Below, in pieces: positions 1 through 8,261 of a DNA stretch of 64,000 nt. How positions within the stretch are numbered: the first letter of the stretch is position 1; each line of letters starts with the position of its first letter. Source of the stretch: Brachybacterium sp. (GTDB taxonomy: Bacteria; Actinomycetota; Actinomycetes; Actinomycetales; Dermabacteraceae); the NCBI RefSeq assembly GCF_036379615.1, contig NZ_DASVGJ010000060.1:105310-169309 (forward strand), read 5' to 3'. Both the position numbers and the translations under genes were made by a program. The notes below the pieces were generated by a model. It did not search any database and had not been told where the DNA came from. It saw only the letters and a list, made by a program, of their open reading frames with translations.

Positions 1-2
1 TC

Positions 3-326
<324 letters not shown>

Positions 327-356
327 TCCGCCGCCGGTCGACGTGCTGCGAGCTAG

Positions 357-465
357 CGAGCGGCAGGAGACCGGTACAGGGATTCCCGCCTCACGGCTGA
401 CTCCTGCCGCTCGTACCCGAGCGCATGACGGGCCCCGATCCTCTCCGGAGGGTCGGGGCCCGTCG
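357..465 (+). terminator. Double hairpin after groEL (also repeat copy 1)
   Basis: 13-bp stem 357-369/401-413, then 17-bp stem 427-443/448-464 (one G-U pair, loop TCCG); lies between convergent groEL and tetR. Confidence 0.8.
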
Positions 466-1104
466 TCATGTCCGGGGGATCGGGGGTCCGGCCGGCCGTT
501 CGTGACGCGCCTGCGCCGTCCAGCCCGCCGCGCGGTCCATGACCGTGCGGTGCAGGTCCTCGAAGGCGGCATCGGCGTGCTCCTCGTCCCCCGTCACGAG
601 CAGCTCGGCCATGAGGCCGCGGAGCGCGCTGAGCACCCAAGCGGACATCGCGGCGGCCTCGTCCGCCGGGCAGCCCGCGCGCGCGACCCCTGCCGCGAGA
701 GCCTGCGCGCGTTCGCCCATCGAGCGCGCGACGGCGGCCCGGACCGCGGTCTCGGAGTACATCGAGATGCCGGTGAGCTCGACGAAGAGCCGCACGTGCT
801 GCCGGCCGTGCGGGGTGCGGGCCCGCTCCCAGATGTCTCGCAGGGGATCGGGGCGATTGTCTGCCTCGAGGTCGGGCAGGCTCAGGGCGCGGGCGATCGC
901 CGCGTCGACGACCTCCGCCACGAGCGCCTCCCGATTCGAGAAGTGGTGCAGCAGCGTCGCATGGCTGATCCCCACCGATCGGGCGAGGGTGCGCAGGGAC
1001 AGCGATCCGACGCCGTGCTCGAGGACGTGTGCGGTCGCCGCGGCGACGATCTCGCCGCGACGGTGCTCGAAACGGCGACGTCGGCCGTCGATGTGATCGG
1101 TCAT
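466..1104 (-). CDS. TetR/AcrR-family transcriptional regulator
   Basis: MTDHIDGRRRRFEHRRGEIVAAATAHVLEHGVGSLSLRTLARSVGISHATLLHHFSNREAL is a TetR N-terminal HTH; ATG at 1104 within track ORF 466..2268. Confidence 0.9.
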   Translation of the reverse strand: MTDHIDGRRRRFEHRRGEIVAAATAHVLEHGVGSLSLRTLARSVGISHATLLHHFSNREALVAEVVDAAIARALSLPDLEADNRPDPLRDIWERARTPHGRQHVRLFVELTGISMYSETAVRAAVARSMGERAQALAAGVARAGCPADEAAAMSAWVLSALRGLMAELLVTGDEEHADAAFEDLHRTVMDRAAGWTAQARHERPAGPPIPRT

Positions 1105-1157
1105 GTCCCCCGTATACCACCGGATGCCGATCGCGGGACACCCCTGGCATCTGCCTA

Positions 1158-1169
1158 TACCGATCGGTA
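1158..1169. promoter_or_regulatory. Perfect 12-bp palindrome, candidate TetR operator
   Basis: TACCGATCGGTA in the divergent tetR/hydrolase intergenic region. Confidence 0.55.
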
Positions 1170-1245
1170 GAGTCACTTCTGGCGCGATGCAGCGCCCCCG
1201 GGACCGCCGGGCCATCCTCCCTCCACGAGCCACCGAGGAGACGTC

Positions 1246-2118
1246 ATGCACACACGCACCCGTCAGGTCAGCGCTCTGCTGGCAACCCTGATCGTCATGC
1301 TGGGAACCCTGTCGCTCACCCAGGCCTCGGCCCTGGCCGACAGCGGGCACCAACGGGGTCCCGATCCCACGCAGCAGAGCATCGAGGCCACGCGCGGCAG
1401 CTTCGACATCGACTCCACCAGGGTGTCCTCGCTGAGGGTCCGCGGCTTCGGCGGCGGCACCATCTATTACCCGACGTCCACGGCGGAGGGGACCTTCGGG
1501 GCGGTCGTCATCTCTCCGGGGTACACGGCGGGCCAGTCGAGCATCGCGTGGATGGGCCCCCGCTTCGCCTCCCAGGGCTTCGTGGTCTTCACGATCGACA
1601 CCAACTCCCGCTACGACCAGCCCTCCTCGCGAGGCGATCAGCTGCTGGCCGCCCTGGACTATCTCACCGACAGCAGCGCCGTCAGCGACCGCATCGACCC
1701 CCAGCGCCTGGCCGTGATCGGGCACTCCATGGGCGGGGGCGGGACCCTCGAGGCCGCGAAGGATCGGCCCGAGCTGAAGGCCGCCGTGGCGATGACCCCG
1801 TGGAACCTCGACAAGTCCTGGCCGGAGATCTCGACCCCCACCCTCGTGGTCGGCGCGCAGAACGACTCGGTCGCCTCCGTGCGCACCCACGCCGTGCCGC
1901 TGTACGAGGGGATCCCGGAATCGACCGACAAGGCCTACCTGGAGCTGCGTGGCGCCTCGCACCTGGCGCCGAACCGTTCGAACACGAGCATCGCGAGCAC
2001 CAGCATCGCCTGGCTCAAGCGATTCGTGGATGACGACGTCCGCTACGATCAGTTCGTCTGCCCCGGACCGCAGACGGGCCTCACCTGGAGCGATGCCAGG
2101 TCCACCTGCCCGTTCTGA
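1246..2118 (+). CDS. Secreted cutinase / PETase-like polyester hydrolase (alpha/beta hydrolase, Streptomyces lipase/Thermobifida cutinase family)
   Basis: Signal peptide; PGYT oxyanion loop; GHSMGGGG nucleophile; TPW; QNDS acid; ASHLAPN His; C-terminal CPGP...STCPF cysteine pair; RBS GAGGAG. Confidence 0.93.
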   Translation: MHTRTRQVSALLATLIVMLGTLSLTQASALADSGHQRGPDPTQQSIEATRGSFDIDSTRVSSLRVRGFGGGTIYYPTSTAEGTFGAVVISPGYTAGQSSIAWMGPRFASQGFVVFTIDTNSRYDQPSSRGDQLLAALDYLTDSSAVSDRIDPQRLAVIGHSMGGGGTLEAAKDRPELKAAVAMTPWNLDKSWPEISTPTLVVGAQNDSVASVRTHAVPLYEGIPESTDKAYLELRGASHLAPNRSNTSIASTSIAWLKRFVDDDVRYDQFVCPGPQTGLTWSDARSTCPF

Positions 2119-2144
2119 CCCCGCGTCAGCCGGCGGTGACGCGC

Positions 2145-2239
2145 GCGGCAGGAGGTGATCCCGCCTCAGGGATGACTCCTGCCGCTCGCCCCGAGCGTTC
2201 GACGGGCCCCGATCCTCTCCGGAGGGTCGGGGCCCGTCG
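2145..2239 (+). repeat. Direct-repeat copy 2 of the post-groEL double hairpin; probable terminator of the hydrolase gene
   Basis: 2201-2239 is identical to 427-465 (39 bp); the upstream GCGGCAGGAG...CTCCTGCCGC stem is also conserved. Confidence 0.85.
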
Positions 2240-2266
2240 CTGTGCTCGACCGGGCACGATGTGTTC

Positions 2267-2725
2267 ATGACCTATGAGCTCCAGGAATCGATCATCGTCC
2301 CCGCCACCACGCAGGAGGTCCACGCGCTGGTCAGCGACGTCACCCGCACGGGGGAGTGGAGTCCGCAGTGCCACCGCTGCGAGTGGGAGGACGAGCGGCG
2401 CGGGAAGGGCGCCCGCTTCGTCGGGCACAACCGCACCCCGCAGCGGGAGTGGGAGACGGTCTCCGAGGTGATCGCGGACGTCCCCGGTGAGCACTTCGCG
2501 TGGTCCGTCGGCCCGGGCCGCGCCGAGTGGGGGTACCGGATGCGTCCGGTCGACGGCGGCACCGAGCTCACCGAGTACACGCGCACCACGCCGTCCTTCG
2601 AGGCGGTCTTCGCCGAGCGGTACGGAGATCGCGCGGAGGAGGAGATCCAGGTGCGCCACGAGGCCGCGCGCACCGGGATCCCCGCCACGCTCGAGGCGAT
2701 CCGGGGCGTGCTCGCGAACGGCTGA
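2267..2725 (+). CDS. SRPBCC (START/polyketide cyclase-like) family protein
   Basis: IIVPATTQEVHALVSDVTRTGEWSPQC...GARFVGHN...FAW...WGY pattern typical of actinobacterial SRPBCC proteins. Confidence 0.85.
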   Translation: MTYELQESIIVPATTQEVHALVSDVTRTGEWSPQCHRCEWEDERRGKGARFVGHNRTPQREWETVSEVIADVPGEHFAWSVGPGRAEWGYRMRPVDGGTELTEYTRTTPSFEAVFAERYGDRAEEEIQVRHEAARTGIPATLEAIRGVLANG

Positions 2726-2993
2726 GTGGCCGCACCCACCCGAGGCCGCCGAGCAGCCGACGACGCCCGTCCACCATGGCTGGACATCTGGATCTACGTA
2801 TTCCGTGAGGGGAGACGGAAGTGGAATGTGGGGCCGCCCTGGGGCGGCGTCGTCGGCGAGGCTTGCGCGTCGACGCGCAGGGAAATCGGCAGTCATTGCA
2901 AAGAGTCGGCTGTCACCTGCGGCGATGGTCGAGAACTGCAGAGGGCGCCCAGGGTTCGACGGTGCTCAAGGATAGTTTCCAGGGCGTCCGGCA

Positions 2994-3022
2994 TTGAGTC
3001 GGAAGGTGACCTGGGTTAGTGT
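2994..3022 (+). promoter_or_regulatory. Sigma-A-type promoter of the hisD-like 1 operon
   Basis: TTGAGT (2994-2999), 17 bp, TAGTGT (3017-3022); an ATG follows at 3029, suggesting a leaderless start. Confidence 0.5.
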
Positions 3023-3033
3023 ATGCGTATGCA
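3020..3033. promoter_or_regulatory. LacI-type operator, site 1
   Basis: TGTATGCGTATGCA matches palindromic consensus TGYATRCGYATRCA fully; overlaps the -10 and start. Confidence 0.7.
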
Positions 3034-4351
3034 CATGAGTTCACTGGACAAAGAGCTGCTCGGAGCGCGCGTCCGCGTCGTCAAGGAATCCGGCGTCCCG
3101 GATCGTTCGGCGCAGTCGGATCCCGAGGTGGAGGCGACCGTCTCCCGGATGCTCTCCGAGATCGAGGCCGAGGGCATGGATGCCGTGCGCCGCTACGCGC
3201 GCGAGCTCGACGGCGACCGCTCCGACAGCTTCCTGATCAGCTCCCCGCAGCTCGAAGCGGCGGGCGAGGAGCTCCCCGAGAGCCTCCGCGAGGCCCTCCG
3301 TGCGGGGGCCGAGCGCACCGGACGGTTCGCGACGTTGCAGCGTGAGCGGCTGCTCGACTTCGAAGAGGAGGTCGTCCCCGGGGTGGTCTGCGGTCAGCGG
3401 CACATCCCGGTCCAGAGCGTGGGCGCGTACCTGCCAGCGGGCCGTTTCCCACTGCTGGCCAGTGCCTTCATGACTGTCGGCGTGGCGGGCGTCGCCGGGG
3501 TGCCGAACCTCGTGGCCTGCACGCCGCCGAGCCGGGACGGCGTTGCGCACCCCGCGGTGCTCTACGCCGCGCACCTCTCCGGGGCCGAGCAGGTCTACGC
3601 GCTCGGAGGGGTCCAGGCGCTCGCCTCGATGGCCTTCGGTCTGCTCGACGCACCGCCGTCGGACCTGATCGTCGGCGCCGGCAACGCCTATGTCGCCGCC
3701 GCGAAGCGGCAGTTGTTCGGCCAGGTCGGGATCGACGTGCTCGCCGGTCCCTCCGAGGTGGCGGTCATCGCCGACGACTCCGCCCCCACCGAGATGGTCG
3801 CCGCCGATCTCCTCGGACAGGCCGAGCACGGACCGACCTCGCCCGCGTGTCTGGTGACCACCTCGGAGCGGATCGCCGCGGAGATCGAGGAGGAGATCGC
3901 ACGCCAGCTGGAGGGGCTCGACACCGCGAGCATCGCCGGTGCCGCCTGGCGGGACTTCGGCTCCGTTTACCTCGCCGAGGACCGGCGTGCCGCCGTCGAC
4001 ATCATGAACCTGCTCGCTCCGGAGCACCTCGAGGTGCTCGCCGAGGACCTCGACTGGTATCTGGAGAACCTCACGAGCTACGGCTCCCTCTTCCTCGGGC
4101 CCTGGTCCACGGTCGCCTATGCGGACAAGGGGATGTCCGGGACCAATCACGTCCTGCCCACCGGCCGCAACGCGCGCTTCACCGGCGGGCTGTCCGTGGC
4201 GGGCTTCATGAAGTGCGTGACCTACCAGCGCGCGACGAAGGAGGCCACGGCGACACAGGCCGAGCCCGTCGTGACCATCTCGGAGTTCGAGGGGATGCCC
4301 GCGCACCGGGACTCCGCCGCGCTCCGCCTCCGCATGCTCCGCTCCGGCTGA
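3029..4351 (+). CDS. Histidinol-dehydrogenase-family NAD-dependent dehydrogenase 1 (HpsN-like, probably non-biosynthetic)
   Basis: GAYLPAG, GAGNAYV, AGPSE, DLLGQAEHG, PEHL, ADKGMSGTNHVLPT motifs; start could be 3023, 3029 or 3035. Confidence 0.9.
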   Translation: MHMSSLDKELLGARVRVVKESGVPDRSAQSDPEVEATVSRMLSEIEAEGMDAVRRYARELDGDRSDSFLISSPQLEAAGEELPESLREALRAGAERTGRFATLQRERLLDFEEEVVPGVVCGQRHIPVQSVGAYLPAGRFPLLASAFMTVGVAGVAGVPNLVACTPPSRDGVAHPAVLYAAHLSGAEQVYALGGVQALASMAFGLLDAPPSDLIVGAGNAYVAAAKRQLFGQVGIDVLAGPSEVAVIADDSAPTEMVAADLLGQAEHGPTSPACLVTTSERIAAEIEEEIARQLEGLDTASIAGAAWRDFGSVYLAEDRRAAVDIMNLLAPEHLEVLAEDLDWYLENLTSYGSLFLGPWSTVAYADKGMSGTNHVLPTGRNARFTGGLSVAGFMKCVTYQRATKEATATQAEPVVTISEFEGMPAHRDSAALRLRMLRSG

Positions 4352-4421
4352 CCGCCGGGCACTCGATGTTCCGGGCCGCACCCGCGGTTCGCCGTCTCAC
4401 AACGCAGTGAAGGACAGCGAC

Positions 4422-5756
4422 ATGACAGTGCACTCCATCCTCCCCTCCGCCACCCGCCGCGCCGCTCTGGCGGGGCTAGGCCTGGCAGGGCTCGCGGGCC
4501 TCACGGCCTGCGGGGCCGGCTCCCGCAACCCTGCCGAGCAGGCGGCGAAGGTCGCCTGCGAGGTGCCGCAGCCGGACTCGGCCGTCACCATCAACGTGCT
4601 CGCCTACAACTCCTCGTCGATCGACCCGTTCACCAATACGCTGGTAAACAGTTGCACGTCGGGGAACATCACGCTTCGGCACGAGCCGATCGACTTCGCG
4701 GGACAAGTGCAGCGCACCCAGGCGACGCTCGCGGGCGAGACAGGCACGTACGACATCATTGAGACGTACAGCTTCGTGATCCCCCAGTTCGGGGACGAGG
4801 GCACTGTCGTCGGCCTGAACCAGTACCTGGAGGAGTTCGGCGAGGCGTACGGTCTCGACGCGCTGAGCGACGCGATGCTCGAGGCGATGACCTACGACGG
4901 CGAGCTCTACGCCCTGCCGATGCAGGCGCAGATGCACCTCATGGCGTACCGCCAGGACATCTTCGATGAGCTGGGCCTCGAGGCGCCCGCCACCTTCGAG
5001 GAGCTGAGAGCGGCGGCAAAGGCGATCCAGGAGGCGGGGGAGATCGAGCACCCGATCGCCATGCCGCTCAAGGCCGATGCCGATCTCGCCACCGCCTACG
5101 ACATGGCGCTGGGCAGCCTTGGGGTGGATATGACCGACGCGGAGGGGACGACGGGGAACTTCGACGCCCCCGAGGCCGCGCAGGCCTTCGAGGAGCTGAT
5201 GTCGCTCATCCCCTACATGGATCCGGAGGTCACGACCTTCGACCAGCCGTCCGTTCAGCAGCAGATGTACAACGGCACAGCCGCCATCGCGATCATGTTC
5301 TCGGGGCGCATGAACGACCTCACCATGGAGTCGAACACCGAGCTCGCTCCGCAGTTCGCGTTTGCCCCGCCGCCCACCGTCGTCGAGGGCGGGCACTACT
5401 TCGCCTCGCTCTCCGTGGACGGCTGGTCGATCCCGACCAACGCGTCGACTGACAAGGCCTCGCTGTTCCAGATGATCGCCTCATCGCTGAGCGAGGAGGC
5501 GTCCCGGGAGGCCGTTCCGGCCGCGTACCCCGCCCGCGAGGGCATGGTCGACGAGGACTCGAGTCCGTACGCCGTCGCCGCGAACACGACGATCGAGGAC
5601 GTCCCGCCCTCGGAGCCGTACCCCTGGACGGCAGAGCTCACGAACGCGATCACGCCGCTCATCGCGAGCGTCTTCCTCGAGCAGGTCTCCGTCGAGGACG
5701 GCCTGTCCCAGATGCAGACCACGAGCGCGGACCTGCTGGCCGCGTACTCGGGCTGA
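4422..5756 (+). CDS. Carbohydrate (CUT1) ABC transporter substrate-binding lipoprotein, Tat-type signal
   Basis: TRRAAL twin-Arg, lipobox LTAC, YALPMQAQMHLMAYRQDIF and APATFEEL motifs. Confidence 0.9.
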   Translation: MTVHSILPSATRRAALAGLGLAGLAGLTACGAGSRNPAEQAAKVACEVPQPDSAVTINVLAYNSSSIDPFTNTLVNSCTSGNITLRHEPIDFAGQVQRTQATLAGETGTYDIIETYSFVIPQFGDEGTVVGLNQYLEEFGEAYGLDALSDAMLEAMTYDGELYALPMQAQMHLMAYRQDIFDELGLEAPATFEELRAAAKAIQEAGEIEHPIAMPLKADADLATAYDMALGSLGVDMTDAEGTTGNFDAPEAAQAFEELMSLIPYMDPEVTTFDQPSVQQQMYNGTAAIAIMFSGRMNDLTMESNTELAPQFAFAPPPTVVEGGHYFASLSVDGWSIPTNASTDKASLFQMIASSLSEEASREAVPAAYPAREGMVDEDSSPYAVAANTTIEDVPPSEPYPWTAELTNAITPLIASVFLEQVSVEDGLSQMQTTSADLLAAYSG

Positions 5757-5792
5757 GCGCCGGAGCGCGACGATGGCGAAGGAAGGTGACGC

Positions 5793-6662
5793 ATGAGGCG
5801 TCGGGAGTACGCAGTGCTCGTCGCACCCAGCATGATCGTAATGTTCGGCCTCCTGGCCCTCCCGCTGCTGCGCACGCTCCAATGGAGCTTCCAGCGCGTG
5901 GACTACGGGCAGCCGGGCACCTGGGTCGGGCTGACGAACTACACCTCCGCGCTGGGGGATCCCCGGTTCCTCCGGGCGATCGGTTTCACGATCGGGCTCA
6001 CGGCGGCCACGTTCGTGGTGGTGGTGCTGATCGCATACGTGCTGGCGGTGCTGGTGAATCAGCTCGGTCGGATCCGTCCGCTGGTGCTGGGAACGCTGCT
6101 GGTGAGCTACGTGGTCCCCCAGGTGATCGGGGCGACGATGTTCGGATGGCTGTTCAACCCCAGCTTCGGCGGGGTCGCGAACCATCTGCTCACGCTGGTG
6201 ACCGGCGAGGACGTCCTATGGCTCACCGAGGCCTGGCCCAACCGTCTGCTGCTGCTCCTGTCCGTGGCCTGGGGCCTGATCCCTTTCGCGATGCTCGTCA
6301 TACTCGCAGGTCTGCAAGGAGTCCCAGAGGAGATGCTCGAGGCCGCGGAGCTCGACGGCGTCTCCACCCTCCAGCTCCATCTGAAAGTCATCGTCCCGAC
6401 CATCCGGGGCGTGCTCGGCTTCGTCTCGCTGATCCTGATCATGGATGTGCTGCGAGTCTTCGATCAGCTCATTCCCCTGTCCCCGCAGGCGGTCCAGATC
6501 GGGAACGAGTCCGCGATGCTTTACATCTACAACATCGCCTTCCGCGACGGCGGCCAGCAGCTGGGGCTGGGCAGCGCCGTCAACATCCTCCTGATCGTCG
6601 TCATCTTCATCCTCCTGCTCCCGTTCCTGCGCGGAACGGCGAAGGAAGGGGCCCGCGCATGA
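5793..6662 (+). CDS. Sugar ABC transporter permease (MalF-like)
   Basis: Multiple TM segments; EAA loop LQGVPEEMLEAAELDG. Confidence 0.93.
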   Translation: MRRREYAVLVAPSMIVMFGLLALPLLRTLQWSFQRVDYGQPGTWVGLTNYTSALGDPRFLRAIGFTIGLTAATFVVVVLIAYVLAVLVNQLGRIRPLVLGTLLVSYVVPQVIGATMFGWLFNPSFGGVANHLLTLVTGEDVLWLTEAWPNRLLLLLSVAWGLIPFAMLVILAGLQGVPEEMLEAAELDGVSTLQLHLKVIVPTIRGVLGFVSLILIMDVLRVFDQLIPLSPQAVQIGNESAMLYIYNIAFRDGGQQLGLGSAVNILLIVVIFILLLPFLRGTAKEGARA

Positions 6663-7543
6663 GCTCGACCCGTCCCGCGAGGCAGAGGAACGCGGCCTCA
6701 GGGCGCCGACGGCGCGCAGGCGGCGCAGGAGGAGTGAAGCGCCTGCTGATCGGCATGTTCCTGCTGCTGTTCTGCCTGATGATGCTGTCCCCGGTGCTGT
6801 GGACGCTGGCGTCGGTCACCAAGCCGACCAACGTCGCCTTCCTGAACCCACCCGTCTTCACCTGGATTCCCACCCTGCAGGCGTTCGTCGACCTGTGGCA
6901 GACGACGAACTTCTACCTCGACCTCCTCAACACCGTCATCGTGGCGGTCGCCTCGACGATCGCCGCGCTGGTGCTCGGGATCCCGGCGGCGTACGCGCTC
7001 TCGCGCTTCCCCGGCTGGATCTCCGCCCTGCTCCTGGTGGTCGCCCTGATCTTCCGCGCGCTGCCGCGGTTCTCGATCCTGCTGCCGATGTATGACCTCG
7101 CACAGCAGCTGGGCATCTACGACACCCGCTTCGCGGTGGGGGCGGCGCTGGTCGCGATCAACCAGCCGTTCTCCATCTGGCTGCTGCGCAACTTCTTCGC
7201 CGAGATCCCGAGCTCCCTCGACGAGGCGGCGATGATCGACGGATGCAGTCGCTTCCAGACCCTGCTGCGCGTGATGATCCCGCTCATGGGGCCGGGGATC
7301 CTCACCGCCGGGATCTTTATGTTCCTGTTCGCGTTCCAGGAGTACCTCACGGCCGTCATCCTCAGCAACGTCGACGCCCGGACCGTCCCGGTGTTCATCG
7401 CGACTCAGCTGGGCCAGACTCTGCCCATGCTCCAGCAGGCGGGGGCGGCGTCGGTGCTGCTCACGCTGCCCGTGATCGCCTTCGCACTGATCGCGCAGAA
7501 GTACATGGTCGCCGGCCTCAACGCCGGATCGGTGAAGGGATGA
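6659..7543 (+). CDS. Sugar ABC transporter permease (MalG-like)
   Basis: ATG 6659 overlaps the previous stop (ATGA); EAA loop FFAEIPSSLDEAAMIDG. Confidence 0.93.
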   Translation: MSSTRPARQRNAASGRRRRAGGAGGVKRLLIGMFLLLFCLMMLSPVLWTLASVTKPTNVAFLNPPVFTWIPTLQAFVDLWQTTNFYLDLLNTVIVAVASTIAALVLGIPAAYALSRFPGWISALLLVVALIFRALPRFSILLPMYDLAQQLGIYDTRFAVGAALVAINQPFSIWLLRNFFAEIPSSLDEAAMIDGCSRFQTLLRVMIPLMGPGILTAGIFMFLFAFQEYLTAVILSNVDARTVPVFIATQLGQTLPMLQQAGAASVLLTLPVIAFALIAQKYMVAGLNAGSVKG

Positions 7544-7568
7544 GGCGTCAGCGGGGGAGGAGCCGACG

Positions 7569-8261
7569 GTGACCGCGGAGATCCCCGTCGTCCTCCTGCC
7601 GGGGATGAACTGCACCCCACGGCTCTGGGCGCCCGTCCTGCCCGCGCTGCGGGGGCGCACCGTCCACCACGGCGAGCTCCTCGGTGCCTCGCTCGAGCAG
7701 TGCGTGGAGAACCTGCTGGCCGTGCTCCCGGAGCGCTTCGCCCTGGCGGGGCTGAGCCTCGGAGGGATCGTCGCCATGGCGCTGCTGCGCACGGCGCCGG
7801 AGCGCGTCGACAGGCTCTGCCTGCTGGACACGAACGCTCGCGCGCCCGAACCCGTGCAGCTCGCGGCCTTCGCGCGTCAGCGCCGGAGGCTGGCGACCGG
7901 CGCCAGCGCTCAGGAGGTGCAGAGGGAGCTGCTGGACGTGCTCGTCCATCCTCGGCATCTGTCCCGGCTCGGGCGCGAGGTGGTCCGGATGGGGGAGGAG
8001 ACCGGCGTCGACAGCCTCGCCCAGCAGTACGCGATCCAGGGCACGCGCCGGGACGAGCGCGATCATCTGCCCGGCATCGGGGTTCCGGTCTCCGTCGTTG
8101 CGGGCCGGGACGATGCGCTCTGTCCGCCGGAGCGGCACGAGGAGATCACGGCCCTGGTGCCCGACGCCACCCTCCGGCTCATCCCGCGCACCGGGCACCT
8201 GTCCCCCCTGGAGAGCCCGACCGAGGTCGCGAAGTCGCTGGTGGCCTGGTTGGAGCGCTGA
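7569..8261 (+). CDS. Alpha/beta-fold hydrolase
   Basis: LLPGMNC, GLSLGG nucleophile elbow, GRDD, GHLSPLE; RBS GGGGAGG. Confidence 0.9.
   Translation: MTAEIPVVLLPGMNCTPRLWAPVLPALRGRTVHHGELLGASLEQCVENLLAVLPERFALAGLSLGGIVAMALLRTAPERVDRLCLLDTNARAPEPVQLAAFARQRRRLATGASAQEVQRELLDVLVHPRHLSRLGREVVRMGEETGVDSLAQQYAIQGTRRDERDHLPGIGVPVSVVAGRDDALCPPERHEEITALVPDATLRLIPRTGHLSPLESPTEVAKSLVAWLER

What the first reader, a model, noticed from the sequence alone, without database searches (positions are those of the whole stretch)
357..2239. TetR-polyesterase cassette bracketed by ~100-bp direct repeats of the groEL terminator
Seen: a double-hairpin element at 357-465 recurs in the same orientation at 2145-2239, with a 39-bp core identical (427-465 = 2201-2239). 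Only tetR and the cutinase gene lie between them, and I saw no other copy in the window. Inference: the cassette was inserted at, or amplified from, the groEL 3' region with the terminator duplicated. It could be excised or amplified by recombination between the copies, giving a recombinase-free route for gain, loss or copy-number change of a polyester hydrolase.
Basis: partly seen in the sequence, partly recalled or inferred. Interest (0 to 1): 0.62.

Follow-up and report, generated by a model that had tools for sequence, protein, structure and literature searches.

The report
Duplicated groEL2 terminator flanking polyesterase genes
In this Brachybacterium genome a regulator-plus-polyesterase gene pair sits just behind the chaperonin gene groEL2, between two copies of that gene's 3' hairpin region; this is a real but old and fairly ordinary insertion scar, not a demonstrably active mobile cassette.

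Summary
Copy A (356-465) and copy B (2141-2239) are co-oriented, share an identical 39-mer, and are the only two copies in the 4.26-Mb genome.

- **Hairpin:** the shared core is the very stable 3' hairpin of groEL2 (-42.6 kcal/mol, no U tract). It is single-copy behind groEL2 in about 30 of 55 Brachybacterium species.
- **Cargo:** a divergent tetR plus secreted PETase-like polyesterase, 87% identical to the B. ginsengisoli-type enzyme BgP. The same pair with a conserved operator occurs in other actinobacterial genera.
- **Distribution:** only 5 of 55 species carry the module, four of them at this site with both hairpin copies. Sister species show clean empty sites (groEL2, one hairpin, SRPBCC).
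- **Origin of copy B:** it aligns without gaps to the ancestral groEL2 stop region, 3' UTR and hairpin, so it is the displaced native 3' end.
- **Age:** the module has diverged in step with rpoB and is decaying in one lineage, so the insertion is old.
- **Second case:** another species has a TRAP transporter bracketed the same way.
- **Recombination:** exchange between the copies is plausible but not shown.

The left arm of copy A's first hairpin belongs to a separate, genus-wide MIRU-like repeat.

The parts
3..326 (+). 3' end of groEL2 (cpn60 with GGM-repeat tail); stop codon TGA at 324-326
   Evidence: Pfam Cpn60_TCP1, E 9.7e-14 on the 107-aa fragment. The full 547-aa ORF lies on contig C60. 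It is conserved at 83-96% nt in all 55 genus genomes.
334..374 (+). One unit of a genus-wide MIRU-like structured repeat ('DR56'), inserted in the groEL2 3' UTR. Its 3' half (356-369) forms the left arm of hairpin 1 of copy A.
   Evidence: It is absent from the 3' UTR of most species and present in G000, G047, G059, G021 and G069. The own genome holds about 13 copies, mostly as tandem pairs with a 55-56-nt period abutting stop codons. Covariation supports two stems: 92.7% of cells paired, 15 double changes vs 5.9±2.0 in shuffles, 0/500. There is no Rfam match.
356..465 (+). Repeat copy A. It comprises hairpin 1 (356-369 pairing with 400-413), a small hairpin (408-413 / 418-423) and the groEL2 terminator-like hairpin T_A (425-466, 19-bp stem, loop 444-447).
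   Evidence: T_A is -42.6 kcal/mol on the + strand and -35.2 on the - strand. The single G.U wobble exists only on the + strand.
466..1104 (-). TetR-family regulator. Its stop codon abuts T_A, so T_A closes two convergent units (groEL2 and tetR).
   Evidence: Pfam TetR_N, E 1.2e-9. Orthologues lie divergent from the polyesterase in G047, G062, G056, Promicromonospora, Microbacterium, Nocardioides and Kineococcus.
1155..1172 (.). Probable TetR operator CTATACCGATCGGTAGAG (core palindrome TACC-N4-GGTA) in the divergent promoter region
   Evidence: Inverted repeat I20. The same ACC-N4-GGT palindrome occurs at the same place in G047, G056 and five other genera.
1246..2118 (+). Secreted PETase-like / cutinase-like polyesterase (290 aa; signal peptide, GHSMG motif, C-terminal Cys pair); orthologue of BgP
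   Evidence: Pfam PF12740, E 6.9e-116. Best solved relatives are PET hydrolases, cutinases and 1JFR, at about E 1e-114. It is 87% identical to the G047 protein, which carries the BgP primer sequences and the AFA-AD cleavage site described in PMC9039725.
2141..2239 (+). Repeat copy B. It comprises hairpin 1 (2141-2154 / 2176-2189), a small hairpin and T_B (2200-2239). It is a relic of the native groEL2 stop region, 3' UTR and hairpin, contiguous with the native right flank.
   Evidence: It aligns gap-free (apart from two 1-nt indels) to the unit-less groEL2 3' end of G070, starting 14 nt before the stop codon (GCGGCAGGAGGTGATCC vs GCGGCATGATGTGATCC) and running into the flank CGCTGTGC. The score is 152 versus 136 against copy A with three gaps. 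Extension further into the ORF is not significant.
2267..2725 (+). SRPBCC / polyketide-cyclase-like gene, the native right neighbour of the groEL2 hairpin
   Evidence: Pfam Polyketide_cyc2, E 8.9e-13. It lies directly behind the single hairpin in G070, G064, G043, G065, G010 and G055.

Best explanation
**What it is.** This is an old insertion scar at a recombination-prone spot just behind groEL2.

- An ancestor of a group of Brachybacterium species acquired a self-contained two-gene module: a TetR repressor, its operator and promoter, and a secreted polyesterase.
- The event duplicated about 100 nt of the target, running from the groEL2 stop-codon region through its 3' UTR and strong stem-loop.
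- Copy B is the displaced native 3' end, still joined to the native downstream gene. Copy A completes groEL2.

**What the copies do now (inferred).**
- They act as U-tract-less ('I-shaped') terminators or 3'-end stabilisers.
- Copy A would close the convergent groEL2 and tetR transcripts.
- Copy B would close the polyesterase transcript and insulate SRPBCC.
- This role would explain why the 39-nt hairpin core stays identical while the rest of the repeat has drifted to about 85%.

**How it arose (inferred).** The duplication is the signature of a single-crossover (Campbell-type) or homology-anchored insertion, not of a transposase.

**Later history (inferred).** The two copies are a substrate for RecA-type deletion. 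That would account for some of the clean single-hairpin sites in sister species.

**Shown versus inferred.** Shown: the repeat anatomy, the copy number, the empty sites, the old age, and the gene identities. Inferred: terminator function, insertion mechanism, and loss through the repeats.
For: **Copy number.** There are only two copies in the genome. The hairpin is single-copy behind groEL2 in about 30 of 55 species. It is doubled only in the module carriers G000, G047, G062 and G009, in G041, and in the fragmented MAG G001.

**Empty sites.** Clean empty sites exist for both right-flank contexts.

**Copy B.** It aligns gap-free to the ancestral stop region, UTR, hairpin and right flank.

**Module identity and distribution.**
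- It is present in 5 of 55 species.
- The same tetR-polyesterase pair with a conserved operator occurs in other genera, so it is a portable unit.
- In G056 it sits elsewhere, without hairpin copies.

**Second case.** G041 has hairpin-TRAP (DctP/DctM)-hairpin followed by the ECF transporter that directly follows the single hairpin in G006.

**Age.**
- Four-fold-site divergence of the polyesterase is 0.40 (G000-G047) and 0.55 (G000-G062). For rpoB it is 0.168 and 0.228, a ratio of 0.74 in both cases.
- Flank genes of G000 vs G047 are 80-89% identical, like the polyesterase at 86%.
- GC and GC3 are host-like.

**Carriers are not one clade.** rpoB rejects their monophyly (p-AU 5e-49) and needs at least 3 state changes. 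Several clean gains or losses therefore occurred.

**Hairpin properties.** The hairpin is very stable and has a strand-specific G.U wobble. G047's two copies share the compensatory GAGCCCC/GGGGCTC variant.
Against: - No U tract follows either hairpin, and the simple terminator scan finds nothing. Termination is therefore assumed, not shown, and no RNA data were available.
- No deletion, circle or tandem junction was seen in public contigs of four runs. Those are assembled contigs, which cannot show rare forms.
- The identity of the two cores needs no exchange between copies, because the core is nearly invariant across species anyway.
- Empty sites may simply be ancestral.
- In G062 and G009 the module is being lost by an internal ~290-bp deletion, not through the repeats.
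- A metagenomic relative (L233) has the module next to the HisD-like cluster with no hairpin copy and no SRPBCC. The history of the locus is therefore more tangled than one insertion.
- The source of the first hairpin-bearing donor molecule is unexplained.
Confidence: 0.6

Rival explanations
1. The cassette, together with its downstream hairpin copy, has moved repeatedly between Brachybacterium species by homologous recombination. The conserved groEL2 gene would serve as one arm and the ~40-100-bp hairpin region as the other. The scattered carriers would then reflect several gains, not losses, and the duplicated hairpin would be what makes the module portable between genomes with different right-hand neighbours.
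For: - Carriers are not monophyletic on rpoB.
- The same module with both hairpin copies sits in two different right-flank contexts: SRPBCC in G000 and G047, and a CPBP protease in G062 and G009. A matching empty site exists for each.
- Both G047 copies carry that species' own hairpin variant.
Against: - Cassette divergence scales with rpoB divergence, at a ratio of 0.74 in both.
- It equals flank-gene divergence between G000 and G047.
- The groEL2 3' ends of carriers are not unusually alike: G000-G062 is 90%, compared with 95% to the non-carriers G070 and G020.

Any transfers would have to be ancient.
Confidence: 0.2
2. The hairpin region is an attachment site for a site-specific, hairpin-recognising recombinase or integrative element. 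That element would target the 3' end of groEL2 and rebuild it on integration. The tetR-polyesterase and TRAP segments would be cargo left after the mobility genes were lost, or cassettes captured in trans.
For: - The direct repeats begin at or inside the 3' end of a conserved gene, and the displaced native end lies on the far side. This is the layout of integrase-made islands.
- Two different cargoes are bracketed by the same site.
- Repeat length (40-100 nt) is in the range I recall for actinomycete integrative elements. This is recollection, not a test.
Against: - No integrase, transposase or any other gene lies between the copies in G000, G047, G062 or G041.
- None of the 55 species has a larger element bounded by this hairpin.
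- Junction positions differ between cases: the B copy is about 100 nt in G000, 85 in G062, 55 in G047 and 60 in G041. This does not suggest a fixed crossover site.
Confidence: 0.07
3. The two copies are unrelated G+C-rich terminators that converged on a similar sequence, or the arrangement is an assembly artefact created by a shared k-mer.
For: - Similar GACGGGCCCCGA...TCGGGGCCCGTC hairpins end unrelated genes in other species, for example G022:C3 and G018:C26.
- De Bruijn assemblers break exactly at these repeats.
Against: - Homology covers loops, unpaired spacers and about 60 nt upstream of the hairpin.
- The same layout is present in complete single-contig genomes (G047, G062) and in several independent metagenome assemblies.
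Confidence: 0.02

Closest known systems
Insertion-duplication (Campbell-type single crossover), and genomic islets at hotspots next to core genes flanked by direct repeats
   Same: - The acquired genes are flanked by co-oriented copies of the target segment.
- The native copy remains joined to the native flank.
- Clean empty sites exist in relatives.
- The same spot is used repeatedly by different cargo: TRAP, DUF222, ECF, SRPBCC and the polyesterase module.
   Different: - The duplicated segment is a gene's 3' UTR and terminator hairpin of only about 100 nt.
- No vector, integrase or IS is present.
- The donor molecule is unknown.
attL/attR of integrase-mediated islands inserted in the 3' end of tRNA or protein genes
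   Same: - The direct repeats start at the 3' end of a conserved gene.
- The gene stays intact, and a displaced partial copy lies at the far end.
   Different: - No integrase is present in any of the 55 species at this site.
- The cargo is 1.7 kb with no mobility genes.
- Repeat boundaries vary between species.
U-tract-less ('I-shaped') intrinsic terminators and 3' stabilising stem-loops of high-G+C actinobacteria
   Same: - A long G+C-rich perfect stem lies directly after stop codons and between convergent genes.
- It is strongly conserved across species.
   Different: - Function was not measured here.
- Unusually, the whole hairpin with its upstream UTR is duplicated as a unit.
BgP, cutinase-like polyesterase of Brachybacterium ginsengisoli B129SM11 (PMC9039725)
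   Same: - The window's enzyme is 87% identical to the G047 protein that matches BgP's primers, length and signal-peptide cleavage site.
- It has the same GHSMG motif and C-terminal Cys pair.
   Different: - That paper holds none of the terms TetR (outside its reference list), GroEL, upstream, downstream, horizontal, genomic context or gene neighbourhood. The TetR partner, operator, groEL2 linkage and flanking repeats therefore appear not to be described there.
- Activity of the window's own enzyme is untested.
MIRUs (mycobacterial interspersed repetitive units); applies to the separate DR56 repeat only
   Same: - Short (53-56 nt) intergenic units occur in tandem, co-oriented with the flanking genes.
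- Unit borders coincide with stop or start codons, and the units contain an SD-like AGGAG.
- PMC12548453 describes MIRUs as apparently mobile and translationally coupled to the adjoining gene.
   Different: - It occurs in a different genus and has a different sequence.
- It has a covarying two-stem structure.
- It mostly abuts stop codons (TGA is part of the unit), not start codons.
- Mobility and coupling were not tested.

Membership tests
Canonical Rho-independent terminator | G+C-rich stem-loop directly downstream of a stop codon | tested here: met
   The stem is 19 bp, at -42.6 kcal/mol with z -7.0. T_A starts 99 nt after the groEL2 stop and abuts the tetR stop. T_B starts 82 nt after the polyesterase stop.
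Canonical Rho-independent terminator | Run of U/T immediately after the stem | tested here: not met
   The tails are GTCATGTCC and CTGTGCTCG, and the scan finds 0 terminator-like sites in 1-3100. It can therefore only be filed as a U-tract-less hairpin.
Canonical Rho-independent terminator | Transcripts end at the hairpin | not testable with these tools
   No run in the list was labelled RNA, and all were kept as assembled contigs.
Dispersed REP / MITE / generic repeated terminator | Many copies scattered over the genome | tested here: not met
   The own genome has two copies. All 55 species have one or two. Weak hits elsewhere are different hairpins.
Integrase-made island (attL/attR) | Direct repeats, one overlapping the 3' end of the target gene | tested here: inconclusive
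   Copy B matches from 14 nt before the groEL2 stop (12/14) onward. Extension further into the ORF is not significant: score 19, reached by 11% of shuffles.
Integrase-made island (attL/attR) | Integrase or recombinase gene inside the island | tested here: not met
   Only tetR and the polyesterase lie between the copies. Only DctP, DctQ and DctM do so in G041.
IS / composite transposon | Transposase, terminal inverted repeats, short target-site duplication | tested here: not met
   There is no transposase ORF. The repeats are direct and about 100 nt long.
PETase-like / cutinase-like polyesterase (Pfam PF12740) | Full-length match above the curated cut-off, with GxSxG nucleophile motif and signal peptide | tested here: met
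   The score is 386.7 bits against a cut-off of 28, covering profile positions 3-263 of 263. GHSMG and the N-terminal signal are visible in the translation. The protein matches PET hydrolase and cutinase structures at about 1e-114.
PETase-like / cutinase-like polyesterase (Pfam PF12740) | Polyester hydrolysis by the protein itself | not testable with these tools
   Activity was shown only for BgP (tributyrin, PCD, PCL; PMC9039725).
TetR-family repressor with divergent target | TetR_N helix-turn-helix domain plus a palindromic operator in the shared promoter region | tested here: met
   PF00440 scores 38.2 bits against a cut-off of 24. The ACC-N4-GGT palindrome is conserved across six genera. 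Binding was not tested.

The most novel reading that the evidence does not exclude
The groEL2 3' hairpin of this Brachybacterium clade could be a dedicated, structure-recognised capture site. A trans-acting hairpin-specific recombinase, or a hairpin-stalled replication template switch, would insert different gene cassettes there (tetR-polyesterase, TRAP transporter, possibly an ECF operon in G001). Each cassette would end up bounded by a fresh copy of the hairpin, in an integron-like arrangement without a linked integrase.
Probability: 0.07. Interest if true: 0.7.

Novelty: new member of a known kind. Interest (0 to 1): 0.3.

Why it matters
**Context for a known enzyme.** The finding supplies genomic context for an experimentally studied polyesterase family member (BgP).
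- The enzyme is part of a portable TetR-controlled module with a conserved operator.
- The module was acquired by a few Brachybacterium lineages and is now being lost in some.
- The operator and repressor are directly testable handles for finding the natural inducer of actinobacterial polyesterases.

**Duplicated terminator.** This is a tidy natural example of an insertion that rebuilds the 3' end of an essential, highly expressed gene. It leaves a recombination substrate behind, and it has happened at least twice at the same spot with different cargo. It does not reveal a new mobility mechanism.

Tried and rejected
- **Generic dispersed repeat:** rejected for the hairpin. It is true only for the separate DR56 unit that supplies one arm of hairpin 1 in copy A.
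- **Known RNA family:** Rfam gave no relevant hit for window 1-6000 or for five DR56 arrays.
- **Direct evidence of excision or amplification:** Logan contigs of four runs showed no groEL2-hairpin-SRPBCC junction, no circle junction and no excess depth. They showed only assembler breaks at the repeats and a G047-like allele in a chicken-gut sample.
- **Exact-protein look-up of SRPBCC for strain-level presence or absence:** nothing on record.
- **Copy B reaching deep into the groEL2 ORF:** not significant beyond about 14 nt.
- **Cassette more diverged than its flanks:** this would have indicated allelic replacement at the hairpins. It was not supported once ordinary flank genes were compared, which are 80-89% identical against 86% for the polyesterase. 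Only tetR is more diverged.
- **Gene conversion as the reason for 39/39 identity:** weakened, because the core is almost invariant across species. The shared compensatory variant in G047 remains the only hint.
- **A third hairpin after the TRAP operon of G062:** absent. That operon has its own U-tract terminator.
Full report
**1. Observation.**

The window starts inside a chaperonin gene whose ORF ends at 326 (Pfam Cpn60). Behind it lies a 110-nt element at 356-465 that recurs in the same orientation at 2141-2239.

- The blocks match at 93-94% identity, with a ~10-nt gap in copy B.
- The 39-mer core 427-465 = 2201-2239 is identical.
- The 39-mer occurs twice in the window, against none in 100 shuffles.
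- The whole 4.26-Mb assembly holds no third copy.
- Both copies fold into two hairpins, far better than shuffled sequence. The second has a 19-bp stem at -42.6 kcal/mol on the + strand and -35.2 on the - strand, where the G.U wobble becomes a mismatch.
- Between the copies lie only a TetR-family gene (466-1104, minus strand) and a PETase-like hydrolase gene (1246-2118; PF12740, E 7e-116).

**2. What the repeated sequence is.**

The genus is Brachybacterium. G056 is B. phenoliresistens JCM 15157. The chaperonin is the stand-alone paralogue with a GGM tail. A second, more distant groEL copy exists elsewhere in each genome.

I fetched the groEL2 3' flank from about 50 of the 55 species genomes. 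In the clade that contains the window, the flank has a conserved form:

TGATCCAGCCTCACGGCTGA..CTGCCGCTCG.ACCCGAGCG..GACGGGCCCCGATCCTCTCCGGAGGGTCGGGGCCCG

The repeat is therefore the groEL2 3' UTR plus its terminal hairpin, here called T.

A genus-wide search with the T region found it as follows:
- once, behind groEL2, in most species that have it;
- twice in G000, G047, G062, G009, G041 and the fragmented MAG G001;
- a few weak hits elsewhere, which are different hairpins of the same G+C-rich style ending other genes.

No U tract follows T, and the consensus terminator scan finds nothing. T can therefore be called only a U-tract-less terminator-like or 3'-stabilising hairpin. Its function is inferred from position, stability, strand asymmetry and conservation.

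**3. The cargo.**

The hydrolase has a signal peptide, the GHSMG motif and a C-terminal cysteine pair. It matches solved PET hydrolases, cutinases and the Streptomyces exfoliatus lipase 1JFR at about 1e-114.

It is 87% identical to the G047 protein. The G047 gene carries the published BgP primer sequences, and its protein has the same 290-aa length and AFA-AD cleavage site. BgP is the cutinase-like polyesterase of B. ginsengisoli, shown to clear tributyrin, polycaprolactone diol and PCL (PMC9039725). That paper holds none of the gene-context terms I searched for.

The divergent tetR-hydrolase pair recurs in Promicromonospora, Microbacterium karelineae, Nocardioides flavescens, Kineococcus and a Kineosporiaceae MAG. 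A palindrome of the form ACC-N4-GGT sits at the same place in the shared promoter region in all of them. In the window it is CTATACCGATCGGTAGAG at 1155-1172.

The cargo is thus a self-contained regulatory module. Its base composition is host-like.

**4. Distribution and empty sites.**

Only 5 of 55 species have the hydrolase.

- G047 has the same layout as the window: groEL2, T, tetR, hydrolase, T, SRPBCC.
- G062 (Brachybacterium sp. Z12) has groEL2, T, tetR, hydrolase, T, followed by a CPBP-protease gene and a TRAP operon.
- The MAG G009 holds the same B-side sequence as G062, at 99.6% identity.
- G056 carries the module at another locus, behind a sequence that by eye resembles the 3' end of 5S rRNA (not tested), with no T copy.

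Clean empty sites exist for both contexts:
- groEL2, one T, SRPBCC in G070, G064, G043, G065, G010 and G055;
- groEL2, one T, CPBP protease in G052.

**5. Which copy is native.**

Copy B aligns almost without gaps to the 3' end of the empty-site species G070.

- The match starts at GCGGCAGGAGGTGATCC (G070: GCGGCATGATGTGATCC). That covers the last codons and the stop codon of groEL2.
- It continues through the UTR and T into the right flank CGCTGTGC.
- It scores higher than the alignment to copy A, which needs three gaps.
- Extension further into the ORF is not significant.

Copy B is therefore the displaced native 3' end, still attached to the native neighbour. Copy A completes groEL2.

The same holds in G041. 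Its second T carries the right flank that follows the single T in G006.

A target duplication of about 100 nt that starts at the end of the target gene is the mark of a single-crossover or homology-anchored insertion, or of an integrase-type event. It is not the mark of a transposase.

No mobility gene lies between the copies in any carrier. The left boundary of copy B also differs between species: about 100 nt in G000, 85 in G062 and 55 in G047.

**6. Age and history.**

On an rpoB tree, the carriers G000, G047 and G062 lie inside one 13-species clade with ten non-carriers. G062 is nested (support 99) among the non-carriers G052, G017, G068 and G055.

- Holding the three carriers together is rejected (p-AU 5e-49).
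- At least three changes of state are needed.

Divergence figures point to an old cassette:
- Four-fold-site divergence of the hydrolase is 0.40 (G000-G047) and 0.55 (G000-G062).
- For rpoB the values are 0.168 and 0.228, the same ratio of 0.74.
- Ordinary genes upstream of groEL2 are 80-89% identical between G000 and G047, like the hydrolase at 86%. tetR is lower, at 75%.

In G062 and G009 a deletion of about 290 bp has removed the tetR start, the operator and promoter, and the first 45 codons of the hydrolase. The module is decaying there.

A metagenomic relative (L233) has an intact module directly beside the HisD-like catabolic cluster that follows SRPBCC in the window. It has neither T nor SRPBCC.

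Taken together, the cassette is old. It has mostly been inherited with its hosts, and it has been gained or lost cleanly several times.

I cannot tell losses through T x T recombination from ancient transfers anchored in groEL2 and T. I favour one early gain with later losses, at about 0.6 against 0.2.

**7. Do the copies still interact?**

The 39/39 identity is not evidence by itself, because the core is almost invariant across species. The 60 nt upstream have drifted to about 85%, each copy having private changes relative to the G070-like consensus.

The one hint of exchange is G047. Both of its copies share the compensatory GAGCCCC/GGGGCTC variant.

Public contigs from four runs show no deletion or circle junction and no excess depth. 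The cassette contig has depth 9.3 against 11.8 for the flank. These are assemblies and cannot show rare molecules.

**8. A second, independent case.**

G041 has groEL2, T1, a TRAP transporter (DctP, DctQ, DctM; 3.5 kb), T2, then an ECF transporter.

- In G063 and G058 the TRAP operon follows the single T with no second copy.
- In G062 the TRAP operon ends in its own U-tract terminator.
- Other species have other cargo between T and SRPBCC, such as a DUF222 gene in G020.

The spot behind groEL2 is thus a recurrent insertion site. In at least two separate events the hairpin region was duplicated.

**9. The first hairpin of copy A.**

Its left arm (356-369) is the 3' half of a 41-nt unit at 334-374 that most species lack at this site. 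This unit belongs to a genus-wide family.

- The own genome has about 13 copies.
- Relatives have arrays of 2-5 units with a 53-56-nt period.
- The arrays begin exactly at the TGA of the upstream gene and end in a truncated unit.
- In two own-genome cases the unit sits directly before a start codon.

Two stems covary around the conserved unpaired GACG and AGGAG. In 25 units, 92.7% of cells are paired, and there are 15 double changes against 5.9±2.0 in shuffles (0/500).

Rfam has no match.

The conserved groEL2 UTR piece CTGA.CTCCTGCCGCTCG looks like the truncated terminal unit of such an array. That explains its complementarity to the inserted unit.

The closest described thing is the mycobacterial MIRU (PMC12548453).

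**10. Verdict.**

It is an old, mostly vertically inherited scar of a known general kind. The proposed recombination-driven gain, loss or amplification remains a reasonable but untested possibility. Interest is modest. The MIRU-like repeat noticed in passing may deserve its own look.

Noticed in passing
window 334-374; own genome C10:17974/18030, C36:138331/138387, C42:26474/26529, C49:10539/10595, C70:74215, C78:79291/79347, C79:23854; relatives L213-L232: This is a genus-wide 53-56-nt tandem intergenic repeat ('DR56'). Its consensus is CTGATCGACGTGCTGCGAGC..GCGAGCGG(C/T)AGGAGATCAG followed by a ~15-nt spacer. Arrays of 2-5 units start exactly at the TGA of the upstream gene, or sit just before a start codon, and end in a truncated unit. 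Two stems covary (92.7% paired; 15 double changes vs 5.9±2.0; 0/500). There is no Rfam match. It is MIRU-like; its function and mobility are unknown.
   Followed up: partly
window 1155-1172: A palindrome, CTATACCGATCGGTAGAG, lies between tetR and the polyesterase gene. The same ACC-N4-GGT inverted repeat is conserved at this position in G047, G056, Promicromonospora, Microbacterium, Nocardioides, Kineococcus and a Kineosporiaceae MAG. It is a probable TetR operator overlapping the -35 region.
   Followed up: partly
L063 (G041:C5:164432-170760) 365-401 and 3957-3994: This is a second case of the groEL2 hairpin bracketing cargo. A 3.5-kb TRAP transporter operon (DctP/Q/M) lies between two hairpin copies. 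The second copy carries the flank that follows the single hairpin in G006.
   Followed up: yes
L042 (G062, Brachybacterium sp. Z12) 6677-7977; L044 (G009): The tetR-polyesterase module is degraded here. A deletion of about 290 bp removes the tetR start, the operator and promoter, and the first ~45 codons (signal peptide) of the hydrolase. The public annotation calls a 280-aa fusion ORF.
   Followed up: partly
L233 (Logan contig SRR25400071_31069) 98-3768: A metagenomic relative has an intact tetR-polyesterase module directly beside the HisD-like catabolic cluster that follows SRPBCC in the window (84% aa). About 700 nt of unrelated spacer takes the place of hairpin copy B and SRPBCC. The contig ends in GGGAGCA heptamer repeats behind tetR.
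   Followed up: partly
L093 (B. phenoliresistens NZ_BAAAOW010000005.1) 1-2110; L057 (G056 groEL2 flank): In this species the module lies at another locus, directly behind a sequence that by eye resembles the 3' end of 5S rRNA (not tested), with no hairpin copy. Its groEL2 hairpin is instead followed by long GGGGCGT heptamer tandem repeats that contain an assembly gap.
   Followed up: no
L047 (G020) 3446-5026 minus strand: A 527-aa DUF222 protein gene is inserted between the groEL2 hairpin and SRPBCC, without hairpin duplication. By recollection, DUF222 is the family of the mycobacterial REP13E12 / HNH-associated repeats. This is a further sign that the site is an insertion hotspot.
   Followed up: no
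groEL2 flanks of G009 (L045 ~1215-1240), G068, G001 (L052), G018: A small conserved hairpin, GATGGGGACTTCTCCCCATC, follows the groEL2 hairpin in several species. It marks yet another alternative right-hand segment.
   Followed up: no
G001: L051 (C171) 1178-1245 and L052 (C215) 4957-5011: This MAG has two copies of the hairpin on two contigs. One follows groEL2 and precedes an ECF transporter operon. The other lies at a contig end, 1.3 kb before SRPBCC. This is either a third bracketed cargo or a mixture of strains.
   Followed up: no
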